Virus record (IMG/VR): IMGVR_UViG_2690315807_000003
Span: 3,696-67,695 of that record
DNA: 64,000 nt
Direction: 5' to 3' (one strand)
Origin: a virus
Lineage: Duplodnaviria > Caudoviricetes
Within the stretch, counting starts at the first letter, position 1. Each line of letters opens with the position of its first letter. Shown here in pieces: positions 50,962 to 55,771 of this stretch. The notes beneath the pieces were generated by a model that made no database searches, was not told the origin of the DNA, and worked only from the letters and a program-made list of their open reading frames with translations. The translations under genes and the position numbers were made by a program.

Positions 50962-52311
50962 TTATAGCCGATCGTATATTGCTTTTATGGCTACCATGAT
51001 TGGGTATATTTGTAGTGGGTTAACGGCATTGCCCAGCGCCTTGAGTCGGCCCGTTCTGTCCTTAATGCCGGATGCTACCCGCGACGGCTCCCAATCGTAC
51101 TGAGGCATCCCCATGAGTGCCGGTTGAGGGTATTCATGTATAAGATCGATTAAATCATCCAACGAATTTATTCCACGTCCGTCCAACCCATTGGAAAATT
51201 CATGAGTGTTTCCACCCACTCCGGGTTGAGCTGCCCTGTATGTCCCTCTCTCATCAATGCACCTGGTACCGAATCCCGTTCTTTCTGCGATTCTGGTAGG
51301 GTTGAATTTTTGCTGTCTTGAGCTGCTGGAGTCGGCCACATGCGAACTGCTCCCGGAAGTCCGTTCCTTGGGTCCTCCGCATTGATCTCCCCGCGTTTCT
51401 CCGCATCGTTTGCACGCGGCGTGGGCCACATCTTCACTGCTGCATGCAGATCCGGTGTTCTGCGTTCTCTCTCCGATGGACAATCGCCCCTCAGTGTTGA
51501 TTTGGGAGTGGGCCAAAGTTTCACTTGGTCGTTTAGATTCCTCGTCCATCCTTGTTCCTGTTTCCGTTGCGCTCTCGGTCCAGTCGGATCGTCTCCGCTC
51601 CTGAAATCCCGCGCTTGTGGAGTCGCCCAGTAATCCTTCGTCGTATTGTAAATGTCTGTTCTTAGGCTCTTGCTCTGACCTCCGCCGTGATTCCCAACCG
51701 AATCCGCCGCGCTCGGTGTTGCCCACAATGATCGTCCGGTCTCTTTTGTGCGAGGACCCGACAGATGCAGACGGAAACACATAAACTTGGACTTCGTAAC
51801 CGATGTCTTTAAGGTCCTGACAGATACGTCCGATAAGCATAATCTCTTGTTGTGTATATATCGTCTCGTAAAAGTCTTCGTCCGCTTCTCTGGCAGCAAT
51901 TCTGCTTTCCACTGTAGTTCCCCCAGTTGGCTCTGCCATACTGAGGAGTCCAGCAACATTTTCGCCAACAAACCAAGTGGGCCGGACATCTGCAACGACT
52001 CGCACAACCTCCGGCCAGAGATAACGCTCATCGTCAGTGCCCCCCCGTTGTCCGGCGTGGCTGAATGGCTGACAGGGGAATCCAGCGGAAATAATGTCAA
52101 TTGTTCTACCGTCTCCAATGATTCCATCCTCCTTTAATCGCTCTGCAGTAAGTGTGCATACATCGTCGTATATGGGTACTCCGGGAAAGTTTTTTTGAAG
52201 AACCTTCTGCGGAAACGGCTCCCGTTCGCAAAATGCTACCGTCTCCATGCCTGCCCAATGAGCTGCCAAGTCGATTCCGCCGATACCGCTAAACAAACTC
52301 AGCTTTCTCAT
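50962..52311 (-). CDS. DNA (cytosine-5) methyltransferase, outer (alpha-like) frame
   Basis: Motif I FSGIGG, IV GFPCQPFS, VI ENV, VIII HKRDR, X LKALGNAV; no recognisable motif IX. Confidence 0.9.
   Translation of the reverse strand: MRKLSLFSGIGGIDLAAHWAGMETVAFCEREPFPQKVLQKNFPGVPIYDDVCTLTAERLKEDGIIGDGRTIDIISAGFPCQPFSHAGQRGGTDDERYLWPEVVRVVADVRPTWFVGENVAGLLSMAEPTGGTTVESRIAAREADEDFYETIYTQQEIMLIGRICQDLKDIGYEVQVYVFPSASVGSSHKRDRTIIVGNTERGGFGWESRRRSEQEPKNRHLQYDEGLLGDSTSAGFQERRRSDWTESATETGTRMDEESKRPSETLAHSQINTEGRLSIGERTQNTGSACSSEDVAHAACKRCGETRGDQCGGPKERTSGSSSHVADSSSSRQQKFNPTRIAERTGFGTRCIDERGTYRAAQPGVGGNTHEFSNGLDGRGINSLDDLIDLIHEYPQPALMGMPQYDWEPSRVASGIKDRTGRLKALGNAVNPLQIYPIMVAIKAIYDRL
51168..52118 (-). 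CDS. Nested out-of-frame gene, candidate methyltransferase beta subunit with WxTP repeats
   Basis: AAAGGAGG at 52128-52135, 9 nt before in-frame TTG; five WxTP repeats; C-terminal LNPEWVETLMNFPMGWT. Confidence 0.75.
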   Translation of the reverse strand: METVEQLTLFPLDSPVSHSATPDNGGALTMSVISGRRLCESLQMSGPLGLLAKMLLDSSVWQSQLGELQWKAELLPEKRTKTFTRRYIHNKRLCLSDVSVRTLKTSVTKSKFMCFRLHLSGPRTKETGRSLWATPSAADSVGNHGGGQSKSLRTDIYNTTKDYWATPQARDFRSGDDPTGPRAQRKQEQGWTRNLNDQVKLWPTPKSTLRGDCPSERERRTPDLHAAVKMWPTPRANDAEKRGEINAEDPRNGLPGAVRMWPTPAAQDSKNSTLPESQKERDSVPGALMREGHTGQLNPEWVETLMNFPMGWTDVE

Positions 52312-52399: not shown

Positions 52400-53077
52400 T
52401 TAATCATCGAAATGTCCGTATCCAAACGGGACTTGATGATTCTCTTCAACTCTTACAATATCGTTAATTAAAGCCTCGAAAATTGCGATTTGTTTATCAT
52501 CCATCATTTCAATAAGCCTGACCTCTTTTGCTTTCAATGAACGTCCTGCCGCAGAAGAAATTAGTTCTTTAACCGGGTTCAAAGATTGCTGACGGTTCTG
52601 TTTCTCCTGATCCGCTTTCTGCTGCACCTCTTGCTTCCGGTTATATTCATCCCAATCCTGTTCGTCGAACCAGAAGCGGTCTCCATATTTATCACGGAAG
52701 GCGGAAATCCAAAATTGGAGTAATTCTTCATTGGTTTGAATCCGATCATGACAGGGCCAACAAAGCCGAAGACCGTTTGTCTTAACTCCGCGTCCCTTCC
52801 TGCCTCGCGGATAGACATGGTGAGTAGTCGTCCCTTCCGCGATTTTGCAGCATTCACAAATTCCGTTTGATTCTTCAATAAGTTTAGCTATGACTTCTTT
52901 TGGAAAATCGCCGCGCTCTTTCGAGCCTGGTCTGGATTGGTGATGGGATAAAATGTCCTTCTTCCATTCCGGTACAGGCTTTTTGTCTTTTTTTCTCCGC
53001 CCGAAGCTGCTCATTTTCTTTTCTTTTACTTTTTTCTCCGGTTTCCAGAATGTTTGATGGGCCATTTCCTCATCCAC
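52400..53077 (-). CDS. HNH endonuclease-domain protein
   Basis: CECC..HHVYPR..N..LCWPCH. Confidence 0.85.
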   Translation of the reverse strand: MDEEMAHQTFWKPEKKVKEKKMSSFGRRKKDKKPVPEWKKDILSHHQSRPGSKERGDFPKEVIAKLIEESNGICECCKIAEGTTTHHVYPRGRKGRGVKTNGLRLCWPCHDRIQTNEELLQFWISAFRDKYGDRFWFDEQDWDEYNRKQEVQQKADQEKQNRQQSLNPVKELISSAAGRSLKAKEVRLIEMMDDKQIAIFEALINDIVRVEENHQVPFGYGHFDD

Positions 53078-54169: not shown

Positions 54170-54641
54170 TTTGCTTTCTCCCTTCATCAGCTCGTTTTTT
54201 AAGTGCATTCGCCGCTCGTTTACGCGCTGATTTTTCCTTCTTATACTGGGCAAGCGGTCTAAATTCCCCGCGTTTTTTAACGAGTATATCTATTGGTAAA
54301 GTCGGATATTTAGCTTGGAATAGTTTCAGTTTGACTCGGAACGTGGAGGTCTCCATTCCTTTAATATCCACCACCCGTTGACTGTCATCTAATCCTGTTA
54401 CCAGGAAGTCAGCGATATAAGTGATCTTCGGTTTCTCTTGAAGAACAAATTTAGGATGGCATTCAAAATCCTTGATATCTCCGTATTTCTTCTGTTGGAG
54501 GAGCAGTTGGTAATACTCTCCCTCAGCCATGCTATCGAATCGTATTCCAGTTATAACAAGGTTGTGCTTTTTAACGATCCATTCCGAGAACAATGTCCCG
54601 TCTTCTGTGACAATCACTTTGGTTGCATTATATTTGTTCAT
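54129..54641 (-). CDS. DUF1064-like nuclease-fold protein
   Basis: NKYNATK, FDSMAEGEYY, YIADF, VVDIKG. Confidence 0.85.
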   Translation of the reverse strand: MNKYNATKVIVTEDGTLFSEWIVKKHNLVITGIRFDSMAEGEYYQLLLQQKKYGDIKDFECHPKFVLQEKPKITYIADFLVTGLDDSQRVVDIKGMETSTFRVKLKLFQAKYPTLPIDILVKKRGEFRPLAQYKKEKSARKRAANALKKRADEGRKQNENQTYRNQKRGR

Positions 54642-55771
54642 TACACTTCTTCCGTCCTATAAGGAAGTACAATGTGGAGTGATCTCTCGTCACTTTCATC
54701 CAGGATATAAATTGGCTTCAACTTACCAGGGAAAACCAGTGTCACCTTATCTCCTTCTAATGCTTTGATAGCATCTATGAAGTACTTGGAATTCAGTGCA
54801 ACGGCAAAATTTTCGCCTTTAAACAAAACTGGAACTATACTCTCATTCGCCTTTCCAGATTCTCTTCCTTTGCCGCGAATGCTCACTTCATTCTCTGTGA
54901 TGCTGATGACGACCTGGTTATGTTTTTCTTCCTTGGCAAGTGTGTATACGAGGTCAAGACAACTCAATATCTCTCCTTTATCTACGATCACCTCGGTAAC
55001 ACCATCTGGCACAATCGACATCCGGCTCACATCCGGGAACGCCCCCTCCAATACCCGGGAGTAAAAGGTGAAACGGTCTGTTCTCGCAAATACGTACACC
55101 ACTTCTCCGGTGAAGGATTTCGAAAATCCAAATTCAAGATTGTCTTTATCCAAGATAATCTTTTGCAACTCACCCAATGCCTTAGCCTCAATGACAGCTC
55201 CACCCAAGTTGCCTACTTCTGTGCGCTGCTCCGTTTTTGCAAGTCTATGCCGGTCTGTCGCTTCAATGCCAAATACTCCGTTATTAATGTAAACATGTGC
55301 TCCAGCTAGGATTGCCGCATTCTTGCCGGTTGGATCAGCAGCATAGGTCGCTTTTCTGAAAAGCCGTTTAAGTTCTTTGCCAGTAGTTTCAAACAACTCG
55401 CTATCATCAATGTCAGGTACTCTCGGAAACTCTTCTGTATCGAAGACACCCATATCTATTTCTTTCTTCCGAGAAATGATAATCACGTTGTTTCCCTGCT
55501 TCTCAATGCTCACATCGCCATTCAATTTCTTGATCACTTCCAGTGATAGCTTAGGGAGTGCAATCTGACCAGGCGAATCAACTTGAACATGTTCACTGAA
55601 AATGTAAGACTGTATCGTTGTTCTTGTATCCGTTCCGGTTACCTTGATCCCATCCGCTCCAGCTTCGATCAAGAAGCAGTCCAGGATTGGCATAATGTTC
55701 TTGCTTGCAATGGCCTTACTTGCATCTTCCAAGGCTTCTGCAAGTAGCTCGCTATCAACGAATATTTTCAT
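54641..55771 (-). CDS. dnaN: DNA polymerase III beta sliding clamp homolog
   Basis: 376 aa; MPIL, ATDRHRLA, SRVLEGAFPD, NSKYFIDAIKAL, IVLPYR. Confidence 0.92.
   Translation of the reverse strand: MKIFVDSELLAEALEDASKAIASKNIMPILDCFLIEAGADGIKVTGTDTRTTIQSYIFSEHVQVDSPGQIALPKLSLEVIKKLNGDVSIEKQGNNVIIISRKKEIDMGVFDTEEFPRVPDIDDSELFETTGKELKRLFRKATYAADPTGKNAAILAGAHVYINNGVFGIEATDRHRLAKTEQRTEVGNLGGAVIEAKALGELQKIILDKDNLEFGFSKSFTGEVVYVFARTDRFTFYSRVLEGAFPDVSRMSIVPDGVTEVIVDKGEILSCLDLVYTLAKEEKHNQVVISITENEVSIRGKGRESGKANESIVPVLFKGENFAVALNSKYFIDAIKALEGDKVTLVFPGKLKPIYILDESDERSLHIVLPYRTEEV

What the first reader, a model, noticed from the sequence alone, without database searches (positions are those of the whole stretch)
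50962..52311. C5 methyltransferase encoded in two fully overlapping frames; nested gene supplies motif IX-like segment and five WxTP repeats
Seen: the outer ORF has motifs I, IV, VI, VIII and X but a long low-complexity middle and no motif IX. Entirely inside it, same strand, another frame stays open about 950 nt, with AAAGGAGG 9 nt before a TTG at 52118, five W(A/P)TP repeats 29-38 aa apart, and a C-terminal LNPEWVETLMNFPMGWT resembling motif IX. Established: M.EcoHK31I is a heterodimer whose beta chain, carrying motif IX, is read from an alternative frame inside the alpha gene; multispecific Bacillus phage MTases carry tandem target-recognition domains. Inference: a two-chain phage MTase whose nested chain holds a repeat array of possible recognition modules that can vary in number while both frames remain open, a potential anti-restriction device that annotation would miss.
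Basis: partly seen in the sequence, partly recalled or inferred. Interest (0 to 1): 0.8.

Follow-up and report, generated by a model that had tools for sequence, protein, structure and literature searches.

The report
Phage cytosine methyltransferase encoded in two frames
A prophage DNA cytosine methyltransferase is written in two overlapping reading frames that appear to give two cooperating protein chains, and the same layout is kept in hundreds of other phages, so it is real and little described rather than an error.

Summary
An outer ORF (alpha, 449 aa) carries C5-methyltransferase motifs I-VIII and X. A nested +1-frame ORF (beta, 316-319 aa) has its own Shine-Dalgarno and start, five W(A/P)TP modules and a C-terminal motif-IX-like segment.

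It is not chance or a sequencing error. In 77 of 78 beta-sampled and 77 of 80 alpha-sampled phage loci the beta-like sequence lies in alpha's +1 frame. Alpha's frame has no stop across beta's module region in 80 of 81 loci (about 5 expected). Alpha's synonymous codons are constrained where beta overlaps it.

Alpha(1-200), beta(134-317) and alpha(404-449) map in that order onto single-chain relatives. Beta therefore holds the variable region plus motif IX, and alpha's middle is an unconserved read-through linker.

The best reading is an M.EcoHK31I-like two-chain enzyme, but with the variable modules on beta. This rests on comparative evidence only; no complex could be folded. Module number (2-6), type and order vary between phages, but a role in specificity is untested.

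'Annotation would miss it' is wrong here: both proteins are in NCBI, and P. larvae phage records list both CDSs.

A conserved N-terminal QxxLF (clamp-binding-like) motif on beta is a new lead.

The parts
50962..52311 (-). alpha (outer) CDS, 449 aa: C5 DNA methyltransferase large-domain chain
   Evidence: ORF. PF00145 E 5.7e-38; TIGR00675. The exact 449-aa product is in NCBI/UniRef.
51721..52311 (-). alpha residues 1-197: catalytic part, motifs I to VIII
   Evidence: Invariant columns among 40 homologues are G9 I10 G11 G12, P79 C80 Q81, E117 N118 V119, and H188 R190 R192. Residues 1-200 align to single-chain P0059 residues 4-176, E 1e-30.
51124..51720 (-). alpha residues 198-396: unconserved, low-complexity read-through linker, the alternate-frame reading of beta's modules
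   Evidence: It is not alignable among 40 homologues and found tblastn matches in only 4 of 83 loci. It has 0 stops against 7.9 expected in the window.
50965..51123 (-). alpha residues 397-449: C-terminal segment with motif X (…RLKALGNAVNP…)
   Evidence: Invariant E408 P409 R411 G415 R419 L426 G427 N428 P432. Residues 404-449 align to P0059 461-506, E 9e-12.
51168..52127 (-). beta (nested) CDS, +1 frame of alpha; 319 aa from ATG 52127 or 316 aa from TTG 52118
   Evidence: ORF. phrog_1008 E 2e-32. 365 database homologues at E<=1e-3. The 316-aa product is in NCBI/UniRef.
52128..52135 (-). Shine-Dalgarno AAAGGAGG for beta, inside alpha codons (…L-K-E-D…)
   Evidence: Sequence. An SD-like 4-mer lies upstream of beta's first start in 61 of 76 loci, against 282 of 1520 control windows.
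52089..52103 (-). beta residues 9-13, QLTLF: matches the QxxLF clamp-binding pattern (a lead only)
   Evidence: Translation. Qxx[LMI][FWY] occurs in the first 30 aa of 44 of 83 class-I betas, against 36 of 963 background windows. The consensus QL[S/D]LF / QxxLF is quoted from PMC12309361.
51729..52127 (-). beta residues 1-133: N-terminal domain, overprinted on alpha motifs IV-VIII, with no counterpart in single-chain relatives
   Evidence: Invariant G38 G52 L54 L58 W64 L71 W73 L120. The beta frame has no stop here in 78 of 79 loci. Alpha's synonymous-codon entropy is 0.64 here against 0.92 in the alpha-only part, p 1e-6. It does not align to P0059.
51237..51728 (-). beta residues 134-297: array of five W(A/P)TP modules. 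W codons start at 51725, 51629, 51515, 51428 and 51338. Types are D, E, F, A, B.
   Evidence: Positions; module typing. Residues 134-317 align to P0059 221-369, between that protein's motif VIII and X; E 1e-47, 48% identity.
51180..51236 (-). beta residues 298-316, GQLNPEWVETLMNFPMGWT: motif-IX-like segment
   Evidence: Invariant G298 N301 P302 W304 V305 L308 P312 W315. The equivalent segment of single-chain P0179 (residues 260-300) is modelled at pLDDT 87-92, within a model that superposes on M.HhaI over its whole length.

Best explanation
The locus encodes one orphan prophage C5 DNA cytosine methyltransferase as two polypeptides read from two overlapping frames of the same strand.

Alpha (outer frame) supplies the large catalytic domain: motifs I-VIII at the N-terminus and motif X at the C-terminus. 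These are joined by about 200 residues whose only visible constraint is to contain no stop codon. That stretch is simply the other-frame reading of beta.

Beta (+1 frame) starts from its own Shine-Dalgarno and start codon inside alpha, just before motif IV. It consists of three parts. The first is an N-terminal domain overprinted on alpha's motifs IV-VIII. The second is a variable array of roughly 35-aa W-x-T-P modules. The third is motif IX.

In single-chain relatives the modules and motif IX occupy the usual variable-region position between motifs VIII and X. Beta is therefore the equivalent of the small, DNA-recognition domain.

Shown by computation: both frames are under selection, beta has a conserved start, and alpha and beta are colinear with single-chain enzymes. 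Inferred: the two chains assemble, as M.EcoHK31I alpha and beta do. Inferred: beta's N-domain serves assembly. Inferred: the modules contact DNA, and the enzyme protects phage DNA from host restriction.
For: Frame arrangement. Beta-like sequence lies in alpha's +1 frame in 77 of 78 phage loci found with a beta pattern. It also does so in 77 of 80 loci found with alpha-only patterns, motifs IV and VIII. 74 of those 77 include the N-domain part of the beta profile. Alpha's C-terminal motif is back in alpha's frame, within one open alpha ORF, in 64 of 78 loci.

Selection on both frames. Alpha's frame has 0 stops across beta's module region in 80 of 81 loci, against 5.0 expected from synonymous shuffles of beta; the third frame averages 9.8 stops and is open in 0 of 81. 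Beta's frame has 0 stops across alpha motifs IV-VIII in 78 of 79 loci, against 1.5 expected; the third frame averages 5.0.

Codon constraint. Alpha's synonymous-codon entropy drops from 0.92 in the alpha-only part to 0.64 in the overlap (p 1e-6). Examples: A181 is GCT in 38 of 38 sequences and L160 is CTC in 33 of 34. Entropy returns to 0.83-1.0 from alpha residue 426, which lies past beta's end.

Close relative. A near-identical independent metagenome copy has 0.31% substitutions in the overlap, against 4.6% and 6.5% in the alpha-only parts (Fisher 2e-9). It has no indels and both frames are open.

Beta's own start. An SD-like motif lies before beta's start in 61 of 76 loci, against 18.6% of control windows. 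The start sits 120-220 nt after alpha's in 55 of 76 loci.

Colinearity. Alpha 1-200, beta 134-317 and alpha 404-449 align in that order to single-chain P0059.

Precedent. M.EcoHK31I needs both an alpha chain and a beta chain, and beta is encoded in another frame inside alpha (PMC2836561 and PMC3404938, passages read).
Against: There is no direct evidence that either product is made or that they bind. No RNA or proteomic data were available, and no complex could be folded. Beta alone folds poorly (mean pLDDT 56). In a single-chain relative the module regions are modelled below pLDDT 50, so the structural role of the modules is unknown. Single-chain relatives exist, so a fused product would in principle work. 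Some database gene calls (P0013, P0020, P0042, P0070) fuse alpha's N-terminus in frame to beta at different points. These could be natural frameshift variants or assembly errors. The loci are related by descent, so the counts are not fully independent.
Confidence: 0.8

Rival explanations
1. One polypeptide is made by two programmed ribosomal frameshifts: +1 after motif VIII into the module frame, then -1 back before motif X. This would reproduce the single-chain enzyme.
For: Alpha(1-200), beta(134-317) and alpha(404-449) are colinear with single-chain relatives, and such relatives are numerous. The point where the frames rejoin differs between loci: before motif IX in L085 and L086, after it in the window, and never in L006, L098 and L116.
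Against: Frameshifting would not require alpha's frame to stay open through 100-200 codons of modules, yet it does in 80 of 81 loci. It would not require beta's frame to stay open back through motifs IV-VIII, yet it does in 78 of 79 loci. It also would not predict an SD and start codon at a conserved place, or conserved residues there that have no single-chain counterpart. No slippery site was looked for systematically.
Confidence: 0.07
2. Beta is a real protein but not a subunit of the methyltransferase. It could be, for example, a regulator or an independent DNA-binding factor, with alpha acting alone as a relaxed-specificity enzyme.
For: Alpha keeps every catalytic motif and motif X. Beta has an N-terminal domain with no counterpart in single-chain enzymes, and an N-terminal QxxLF-like motif.
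Against: Beta's C-terminal 184 residues are homologous (E 1e-47) to the stretch between motifs VIII and X of single-chain enzymes, and that stretch includes the invariant motif-IX-like segment. Alpha lacks any conserved segment there. In M.EcoHK31I the chain that bears motif IX is required for activity (PMC2836561, passages).
Confidence: 0.08
3. Artefact or decay: the two frames result from sequencing errors or recent frameshift mutations in a single-chain gene, and the nested frame is open by chance.
For: The alternate frame of a GC-balanced gene can stay open by chance. For the window alone, the N-terminal overlap is not significant (18% of shuffles have no stop).
Against: The same frame arrangement occurs in 77 of 78 and 77 of 80 independently assembled phage loci, and in 93 cultured-phage records. 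Contigs from an independent study show no indel across 50971-52153.
Confidence: 0.02

Closest known systems
M.EcoHK31I (E. coli HK31; Lee, Kam & Shaw 1995). Known to me through passages of PMC2836561 and PMC3404938; the original paper, PMC306636, is not held.
   Same: It is a two-chain C5 methyltransferase. Alpha has motifs I-VIII and X. Beta is encoded entirely within alpha's gene in another reading frame and carries motif IX. Beta's N-terminal residues are needed for association with alpha.
   Different: In M.EcoHK31I the TRD is assigned to alpha and beta is small (recalled: 176 aa). Here alpha's middle is unconserved, and the variable modules plus a 133-aa N-domain are on beta, which begins upstream of motif IV. 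M.EcoHK31I belongs to a restriction-modification system, whereas this is an orphan gene in a prophage replication module. Sequence homology to M.EcoHK31I could not be tested because no sequence was at hand.
Nested 'DNA cytosine methyltransferase' CDS pairs annotated in Paenibacillus larvae Fernvirus phages, e.g. Jacopo gp56/gp57 and Leyra gp61/gp62
   Same: They are homologous, with about 70% nucleotide identity in parts and 38-39% identity for beta. The alpha/beta +1 arrangement is the same, and beta starts at the same place ('MES…EQLTLFP').
   Different: They have three W-x-T-P modules instead of five, and lack the 31-aa insertion between motifs VI and VIII. In the two P. larvae phage genomics papers, term searches of the text showed both gene products only as table entries, with no passage on the nesting (PMC6070908 and PMC5056774).
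Single-chain relatives from metagenomes (P0059, P0126, P0127, P0132, P0179, P0188, P0207 …)
   Same: They have the same catalytic core, the same W-P-T-P module types, the same LNPxWVExLMGFPxGWT segment and the same motif X, in the same order.
   Different: Everything is in one frame, and there is no counterpart of beta's N-terminal 133 residues. Motif IV reads PCQDLS rather than PCQPFS.
M.AquI (alpha: motifs I-VIII; beta: motifs IX-X), as summarised in PMC3404938
   Same: It is a C5 methyltransferase split within the variable region into two chains. Relatives of the window at L006, L098, L116 and proteins P0007, P0008, P0014, P0021, P0025, P0034 have this partition, with beta fused in frame to motif X.
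   Different: In the window motif X is on alpha, not on beta. In this family the two genes overlap by hundreds of bases.
Multispecific Bacillus phage C5 methyltransferases (SPR, phi3T, rho11s type; recalled, not examined here)
   Same: They are phage orphan enzymes with a tandem array of short, exchangeable units in the variable region. Here the number, type and order of units also differ between phages.
   Different: Those are single chains whose units are proven target-recognising domains. Here the units are about 35 aa, carry a W-x-T-P signature, are modelled as unstructured and have no tested function.

Membership tests
C5 DNA cytosine methyltransferase (Pfam PF00145) | Motif I (FxGxGG, AdoMet binding) | tested here: met
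   Alpha reads LFSGIGG. G9 I10 G11 G12 are invariant in 40 homologues. PF00145 E 5.7e-38.
C5 DNA cytosine methyltransferase (Pfam PF00145) | Motif IV (PCQ with the catalytic Cys), motif VI (ENV) and motif VIII (arginine-rich) | tested here: met
   P79 C80 Q81, E117 N118 V119, and H188 R190 R192 are invariant. The motif names are recalled.
C5 DNA cytosine methyltransferase (Pfam PF00145) | Motif X (GN…P helix that closes the AdoMet site) on the same chain as motif I | tested here: met
   Alpha reads RLKALGNAVNP. L426 G427 N428 P432 are invariant. It aligns to the C-terminus of P0059.
C5 DNA cytosine methyltransferase (Pfam PF00145) | Motif IX and the variable region between motifs VIII and X on the same chain | tested here: not met
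   Alpha residues 198-396 are unconserved. The homologous segment is in beta.
M.EcoHK31I-type two-chain enzyme | Beta is encoded in another frame entirely inside alpha's gene | tested here: met
   51168..52127 lies within 50962..52311, on the same strand, in frame +1. This is conserved in 77 of 78 and 77 of 80 loci.
M.EcoHK31I-type two-chain enzyme | Beta carries motif IX | tested here: inconclusive
   The segment is invariant. In single-chain relatives it sits just before motif X and is confidently modelled, within a model that superposes on M.HhaI (Z 23.4, rmsd 3.3, 225 aligned, model 1-384 against chain 12-327). No residue-level match to a solved motif IX was obtained.
M.EcoHK31I-type two-chain enzyme | The TRD lies on alpha | tested here: not met
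   Alpha's middle is unconserved, and the variable modules lie on beta.
M.EcoHK31I-type two-chain enzyme | Both chains are required for activity and associate with each other | not testable with these tools
This needs expression and assay.
M.EcoHK31I-type two-chain enzyme | Sequence homology to M.EcoHK31I alpha and beta | not tested
   No M.EcoHK31I sequence was available. The original paper is not held and supplements are closed.
Type II restriction-modification system | A cognate restriction endonuclease gene next to the methyltransferase | tested here: not met
   The neighbours are phage replication and packaging genes plus a phage-type HNH protein. No restriction enzyme family matched.
Multispecific phage C5 methyltransferases | Tandem units that each confer one target specificity | not testable with these tools
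   Only variation in number, type and order was shown. This needs methylome data on module variants.
Sliding-clamp-binding proteins (QL[S/D]LF / QxxLF motif) | The pentapeptide lies in a flexible terminus | tested here: met
   Beta residues 9-13 are QLTLF, and residues 1-41 are modelled at pLDDT below 50. The motif is enriched at beta N-termini: 44 of 83 against 36 of 963. The consensus is from PMC12309361.
Sliding-clamp-binding proteins (QL[S/D]LF / QxxLF motif) | Binding to DnaN | not testable with these tools
   No complex tool was available. This needs a peptide-binding or pull-down assay.

The most novel reading that the evidence does not exclude
The nested beta chain may be a modular adaptor that defines a very large, cross-phylum family of dual-frame phage methyltransferases. 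In this reading its N-terminal QxxLF peptide tethers the enzyme to the sliding clamp; the prophage encodes its own clamp 2.5 kb upstream, at 54641-55771. Methylation would then be coupled to replication, a bacterial and phage counterpart of DNMT1-PCNA. Its shuffled W-x-T-P cassettes would set, and possibly multiply, target specificity. Alpha's linker tolerates any cassette swap that introduces no stop codon. In a related metagenome contig, 934 bases of the window's middle are replaced by 337 unmatched bases.
Probability: 0.18. Interest if true: 0.85.

Novelty: new variant of a known kind. Interest (0 to 1): 0.66.

Why it matters
Long same-strand overlapping genes in which both products are conserved are rare outside small viruses. 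Here about 960 bases, and in some relatives the whole gene, encode two conserved chains of one enzyme.

The arrangement is the majority form in the phage contigs sampled. It occurred in 77 of 80 loci found with alpha-only motifs. A beta profile finds 44,846 cluster representatives at E<=1e-3; many of the weaker ones may be single-chain enzymes.

It offers a natural system for three questions: how two frames co-evolve, how an unconstrained read-through linker is tolerated inside an enzyme, and how specificity modules are exchanged under a double coding constraint.

Practically, phage annotation that keeps only the outer CDS loses the chain that probably determines what the enzyme methylates. 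This is the case in, for example, Salmonella phage vB_SalP_ABTNLsp11242, Acinetobacter phage ABMM1 and some P. larvae phage records. Predictions of phage methylation and restriction evasion based on alpha alone would then be unreliable.

It also suggests re-examining whether the TRD of M.EcoHK31I is really on alpha.

Tried and rejected
Nothing was folded, so there is no verdict on binding.

Beta alone (AlphaFold2, 40-row alignment): mean pLDDT 56, which is too poor for a fold search.

Beta profile against PDB sequences: only chance-level hits, GerE at E 0.36 and a dynein regulatory subunit at 4.2.

A 129-aa C-terminal piece of single-chain P0179 against PDB sequences: only chance-level hits to ribosomal uL16, at E 0.39 or higher. 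No residue-level match to a solved motif IX was obtained.

ESM Atlas search with beta residues 1-133: only unnamed viral clusters, best score 0.91.

NCBIfam and Pfam for beta: no family matched.

Earlier findings of this scan, searched by sequence: nothing returned.

I sampled viral contigs with the single-chain alignment instead. That sample turned out to be almost entirely two-frame loci, so the question whether single-chain genes keep the +1 frame open stays open. I first read L085 and L086 as single-chain, but they are a third partition: motif IX in alpha's frame and the modules in a +1 ORF.

Expression: no RNA holder was listed for this stretch, so nothing can be said about transcription.

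M.EcoHK31I sequence: not obtainable. PMC306636 is not held, and supplements are closed; those of PMC2836561 may hold the construct sequences. A blastn of a Salmonella-phage homologue against 5,426 E. coli genomes found 4 genomes, all annotated only as 'DNA cytosine methyltransferase'.

Plasmids: 7 records hold beta-like sequence, and none was informative.

Prior description: six full-text searches found no paper describing this nested arrangement in phages. The library lacks most subscription journals and REBASE, so this is not proof that it is unpublished.

Full report
WHAT IS THERE

On the minus strand an outer ORF runs from ATG 52311 to the stop at 50962-50964 and is 449 aa; the ORF listing also offers a TTG start at 52449. 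It is a C5 DNA cytosine methyltransferase: PF00145 E 5.7e-38, TIGR00675 E 3e-30 and phrog_363 E 1e-74.

Entirely inside it, on the same strand and one base further on (+1), a second ORF runs from 52127 to 51168 and is 319 aa. AAAGGAGG sits at 52135-52128 and an in-frame TTG at 52118, nine bases after it. This nested product has no Pfam or NCBIfam family but matches phrog_1008 'DNA methyltransferase' at E 2e-32.

The nested product has five W[AP]TP motifs at residues 135, 167, 205, 234 and 264. It ends with GQLNPEWVETLMNFPMGWTDVE.

The window is a provirus record of 67,695 bases. The gene lies between a phage replication module and the terminase genes. The replication module holds an anti-repressor, DnaD- and DnaC-like loaders, a sliding-clamp homologue, a RuvC-like resolvase and an HNH protein. 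No restriction enzyme was recognised nearby.

IS IT MORE THAN CHANCE OR ERROR?

Cultured Paenibacillus larvae phages (Fernvirus) carry a homologous pair. Their GenBank and RefSeq records already list two nested 'DNA cytosine methyltransferase' CDSs with the same relative start ('MES…EQLTLFP').

A pattern taken from the nested protein found relatives in at least 554 IMG/VR stretches, and 80 loci were fetched. Of these, 78 had tblastn hits both for the outer N-terminal part and for the nested C-terminal part. In 77 of the 78 the nested part lies in the +1 frame of the outer one. In 64 of the 78 the outer C-terminal motif is back in the outer frame within one open ORF.

I then shuffled synonymous codons. 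Holding the nested protein fixed, the outer frame should carry about 5.0 stops across the module region. It carries none in 80 of 81 loci (the window, three phage records and 77 contigs). The exception is L006. The third frame averages 9.8 stops and is never open.

Holding the outer protein fixed, the nested frame should carry about 1.5 stops across motifs IV-VIII. It carries none in 78 of 79 loci, while the third frame averages 5.0.

This second test is unbiased in one respect: the loci were chosen by the nested C-terminus, not by its N-terminus.

A second sample was drawn with outer-chain patterns only (motifs IV and VIII). In it, 77 of 80 loci had a beta-like ORF in the +1 frame (hmmsearch E<=1e-5). 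In 74 of those the match includes the N-domain part of the beta profile. One cut contig (L088) had the beta-like region in frame 0, and two loci had none.

SIGNATURE OF DOUBLE CODING

Among 40 outer-chain homologues, I looked at conserved residues with degenerate codons. In the part that no nested frame covers (residues up to 58) they use their codons almost freely: normalised entropy 0.92 over 20 columns. In the overlap with the nested N-domain (residues 66-197) entropy falls to 0.64 over 39 columns (Mann-Whitney p 1e-6).

Extreme cases are A181 = GCT in 38 of 38, L160 = CTC in 33 of 34, D72 = GAC in 36 of 37, and L167 = YTG in 38 of 40. The last is the Leu codon that gives the nested chain its invariant W73.

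Near the outer C-terminus, entropy is low for residues 408-424. In most loci these are read in the other frame as NPxWVEWL, so outer EPxVGRVA and nested NPxWVEWL are the same nucleotides. Entropy is free again from residue 426 on.

A near-identical copy occurs in sediment metagenome contigs from one independent study. One contig of 1,193 nt covers 50971-52153 with 15 substitutions and no gaps. Both frames stay open. Substitution density is 0.31% in the overlap, against 4.6% and 6.5% in the two outer-only parts (Fisher 2e-9). Sequencing error and recent decay are therefore excluded.

WHAT THE TWO CHAINS ARE

The outer chain (alpha) keeps the following invariant: G9-I10-G11-G12, P79-C80-Q81, E117-N118-V119, H188/R190/R192 and L426-G427-N428…P432. 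By recalled names these are motifs I, IV, VI, VIII and X.

Its residues 198-396 cannot be aligned among homologues and vary greatly in length. They found tblastn matches in only 4 of 83 loci. They are 74% small, polar or charged residues. The only recurrent element there, 'DVAD', is the other-frame shadow of M-W-P-T-P.

The nested chain (beta) is conserved end to end in 365 database proteins at E<=1e-3, most covering 97-99% of it.

The database also holds single-chain enzymes that have everything in one frame: the catalytic core, W-P-T-P modules, LNPxWVExLMGFPxGWT, further modules, and motif X. Against one of them, P0059, the window's alpha 1-200 aligns to residues 4-176 (E 1e-30). Beta 134-317 aligns to 221-369 (E 1e-47, 48% identity). 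Alpha 404-449 aligns to 461-506 (E 9e-12). Beta 1-133 aligns to nothing.

An AlphaFold2 model of a single-chain relative (P0179, 42-row alignment, mean pLDDT 68) is confident for three parts: the catalytic core, the LSPAWVECLMNFPLGWT region (pLDDT 87-92) and the motif X helix. The modules are below pLDDT 50. The model superposes on M.HhaI over its whole length (Z 23.4, rmsd 3.3, 225 residues, model 1-384 on chain 12-327).

Beta's C-terminal half is therefore the variable region plus motif IX of an ordinary C5 methyltransferase, displaced into another frame. Beta's N-terminal 133 residues are an addition written over alpha's motifs IV-VIII.

HOW IT MOST LIKELY WORKS

Beta has its own start. In 55 of 76 loci the first start of the nested ORF lies 120-220 nt after alpha's start, usually just behind an in-frame stop. 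In 61 of 76 loci an SD-like 4-mer lies 5-18 nt upstream, against 282 of 1520 control windows. In many loci the SD is alpha's own K-E codons (AAG GAG).

The most economical reading has ribosomes making two proteins. Alpha is the large domain, whose two halves are tied by a linker that must merely stay open. Beta is the small-domain equivalent, which must dock on alpha. M.EcoHK31I works this way; its beta lies in another frame inside alpha and carries motif IX, and both chains are needed (PMC2836561 and PMC3404938, passages).

Shown here: selection on both frames, the conserved start, and colinearity with single-chain enzymes. Inferred: assembly of the chains, a role of the N-domain in assembly, DNA contact by the modules, and protection of phage DNA from host restriction.

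A double programmed frameshift would also rebuild the single chain. It does not explain why alpha's frame is open through the modules. It also does not explain why beta's frame is open and conserved back to a start codon before motif IV. I give it 7%.

THE MODULES

In 79 distinct beta chains the number of [WFYLMRH]xTP-type units before motif IX ranges from 2 to 6, with a median of 3. The distribution is 9, 31, 19, 17 and 3 proteins with 2, 3, 4, 5 and 6 units. The median unit length is 35.5 aa. The pattern splits one module type (F) into two (F+H), so the window scores 6 for its five W[AP]TP units.

The 290 units fall into 101 clusters at 50% identity, and 28 clusters have three or more members. 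The same types recur in different numbers and orders: window D-E-F-A-B, P0008 D-A-E-F-B, P0007 D-E-A-B, P0015 C-E-A-B, L007 A-E-B.

One metagenome contig keeps the window's flanks, but 337 letters that match nothing in the window stand in place of the 934 bases between 51013 and 51948.

Nothing here shows what a cassette does. The low model confidence may mean either disorder without DNA or simply a shallow, shuffled alignment.

VARIANTS OF THE ARCHITECTURE

The family shows a continuum of partitions.
(i) Single chain: P0059 and similar proteins.
(ii) Alpha ends after motif VIII and beta runs on in frame through motif X. This is the M.AquI-like partition, seen in L006, L098, L116 and proteins P0007, P0008, P0014, P0021, P0025 and P0034.
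(iii) The window's form, with motif IX on beta and motif X on alpha.
(iv) L085 and L086, where motifs IX and X are both in alpha's frame and a +1 ORF holds part of the N-domain and the modules only.
(v) A whole-gene overlap, in which beta's ATG lies four bases after alpha's ATG ('ATGAATG', beta 'MSWLFS…'). This occurs in 11 of 76 loci. Examples are Acinetobacter phage ABMM1 and a P22-like Salmonella phage, where alpha is 244 aa, beta is 247 aa and only alpha is annotated.

A NEW LEAD

Beta's N-terminus reads …EQLTLFP. Qxx[LMI][FWY] occurs within the first 30 residues in 44 of 83 distinct class-I beta chains, against 36 of 963 windows elsewhere in beta. The strict form Q[LMIV][STDEN][LM]F occurs in 29 of 83.

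The motif appears in two different registers relative to alpha: QLTLF over alpha's I-D-I-I-S, and QMDLF, QKELF or QIEMF further upstream over a variable part of alpha. It is therefore not merely alpha's shadow.

The bacterial clamp-binding motif is QL[S/D]LF, or more generally QxxLF (PMC12309361, passage). Residues 1-41 of beta are modelled as unstructured. The prophage encodes a clamp homologue at 54641-55771 (phrog_947, E 2e-53). Binding is untested, and the motif could equally serve docking on alpha.

KNOWN OR NEW?

The kind of enzyme has been known since M.EcoHK31I: a two-chain C5 methyltransferase with the small chain nested in another frame. This genome's two products are already in public protein databases, and P. 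larvae phage records annotate both CDSs.

What I did not find in print, in six full-text searches, is any of the following:
- that this is the prevailing architecture of a very large phage family. The beta profile finds 44,846 representatives at E<=1e-3, 31,115 at 1e-10 and 5,614 at 1e-30; many of the weaker ones may be single-chain enzymes;
- that the variable region sits on the nested chain while alpha's 'variable region' is an unconstrained read-through;
- that the modules are shuffled cassettes;
- that partitions range up to complete overlap.

The library lacks REBASE and most subscription journals, and supplements were closed, so prior description cannot be excluded.

I file it as a new variant of a known kind.

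LIMITS

All the evidence is comparative. The loci share ancestry, so the counts overstate independence. However, identities of 25-50% at the protein level and free synonymous sites outside the overlap argue that the open frames are actively maintained.

Noticed in passing
L164:1023-1770 (Salmonella phage vB_SalP_ABTNLsp11242); L003:1068-1982 (Acinetobacter phage ABMM1); also L014, L041, L047, L055, L056, L061, L067, L069, L075: This is a second class of the same family. Beta's ATG lies 4 bases after alpha's ATG ('ATGAATG', beta begins MSWLFS…), so the two chains overlap over the whole gene (alpha 244 aa, beta 247 aa in L164). One ribosome-binding site could serve both starts. Only alpha is annotated in these two phage records.
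   Followed up: partly
window 52089-52103 (beta residues 9-13) and window 54641-55771: Beta's N-terminal QLTLF fits the sliding-clamp-binding pattern QxxLF. The pattern is enriched at beta N-termini (44 of 83 against 36 of 963 background windows). The prophage encodes its own clamp homologue 2.5 kb upstream. Replication-coupled methylation is a possible reading.
   Followed up: partly
L085:1492-2544 and 1805-2335; L086 likewise: This is another partition. Motifs IX and X are both in alpha's frame, while a 177-aa +1 ORF holds only part of the N-domain and three L/F-P-T-P modules.
   Followed up: partly
L006:2305-3485; L098; L116; proteins P0007, P0008, P0014, P0021, P0025, P0034: This is the M.AquI-like partition. 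Alpha stops just after motif VIII, and beta continues in frame through motif X.
   Followed up: partly
window 51013-51948, as seen in run X3 (table 5): A metagenome contig keeps the window's flanks, but between 51013 and 51948 it skips 934 bases and holds 337 letters that lie on neither side. This looks like a cassette replacement of the module array. Its sequence was not seen.
   Followed up: no
protein P0103 (449 aa): A beta homologue carries a LAGLIDADG homing-endonuclease domain (PF00961) inserted in its N-terminal part. If the gene is nested like the others, the insertion would also have to stay open in alpha's frame.
   Followed up: no
proteins P0013, P0020, P0042, P0070, P0101: These are gene calls in which alpha's N-terminus is fused in frame to beta at different points: after motif I, after motif IV, or near motif VIII. 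They could be natural frameshift variants, phase-variable forms or assembly errors.
   Followed up: no
window 51195-51230 versus 51060-51100: In most relatives, alpha's EPxVGRVA and beta's NPxWVEWL are the same nucleotides read in two frames. In the window and its Paenibacillus-type relatives the two are separated: alpha reads a degenerate shadow (QPGVGGNT) over beta's motif IX, and carries its real WEPSRVASG copy after beta's stop. This suggests a local duplication that relieved the overlap.
   Followed up: partly
window 52400-53077 (-): A 225-aa phage-type HNH endonuclease (phrog_7370, phrog_22514) ends 89 bases upstream of alpha's start. It is not obviously a restriction partner.
   Followed up: no
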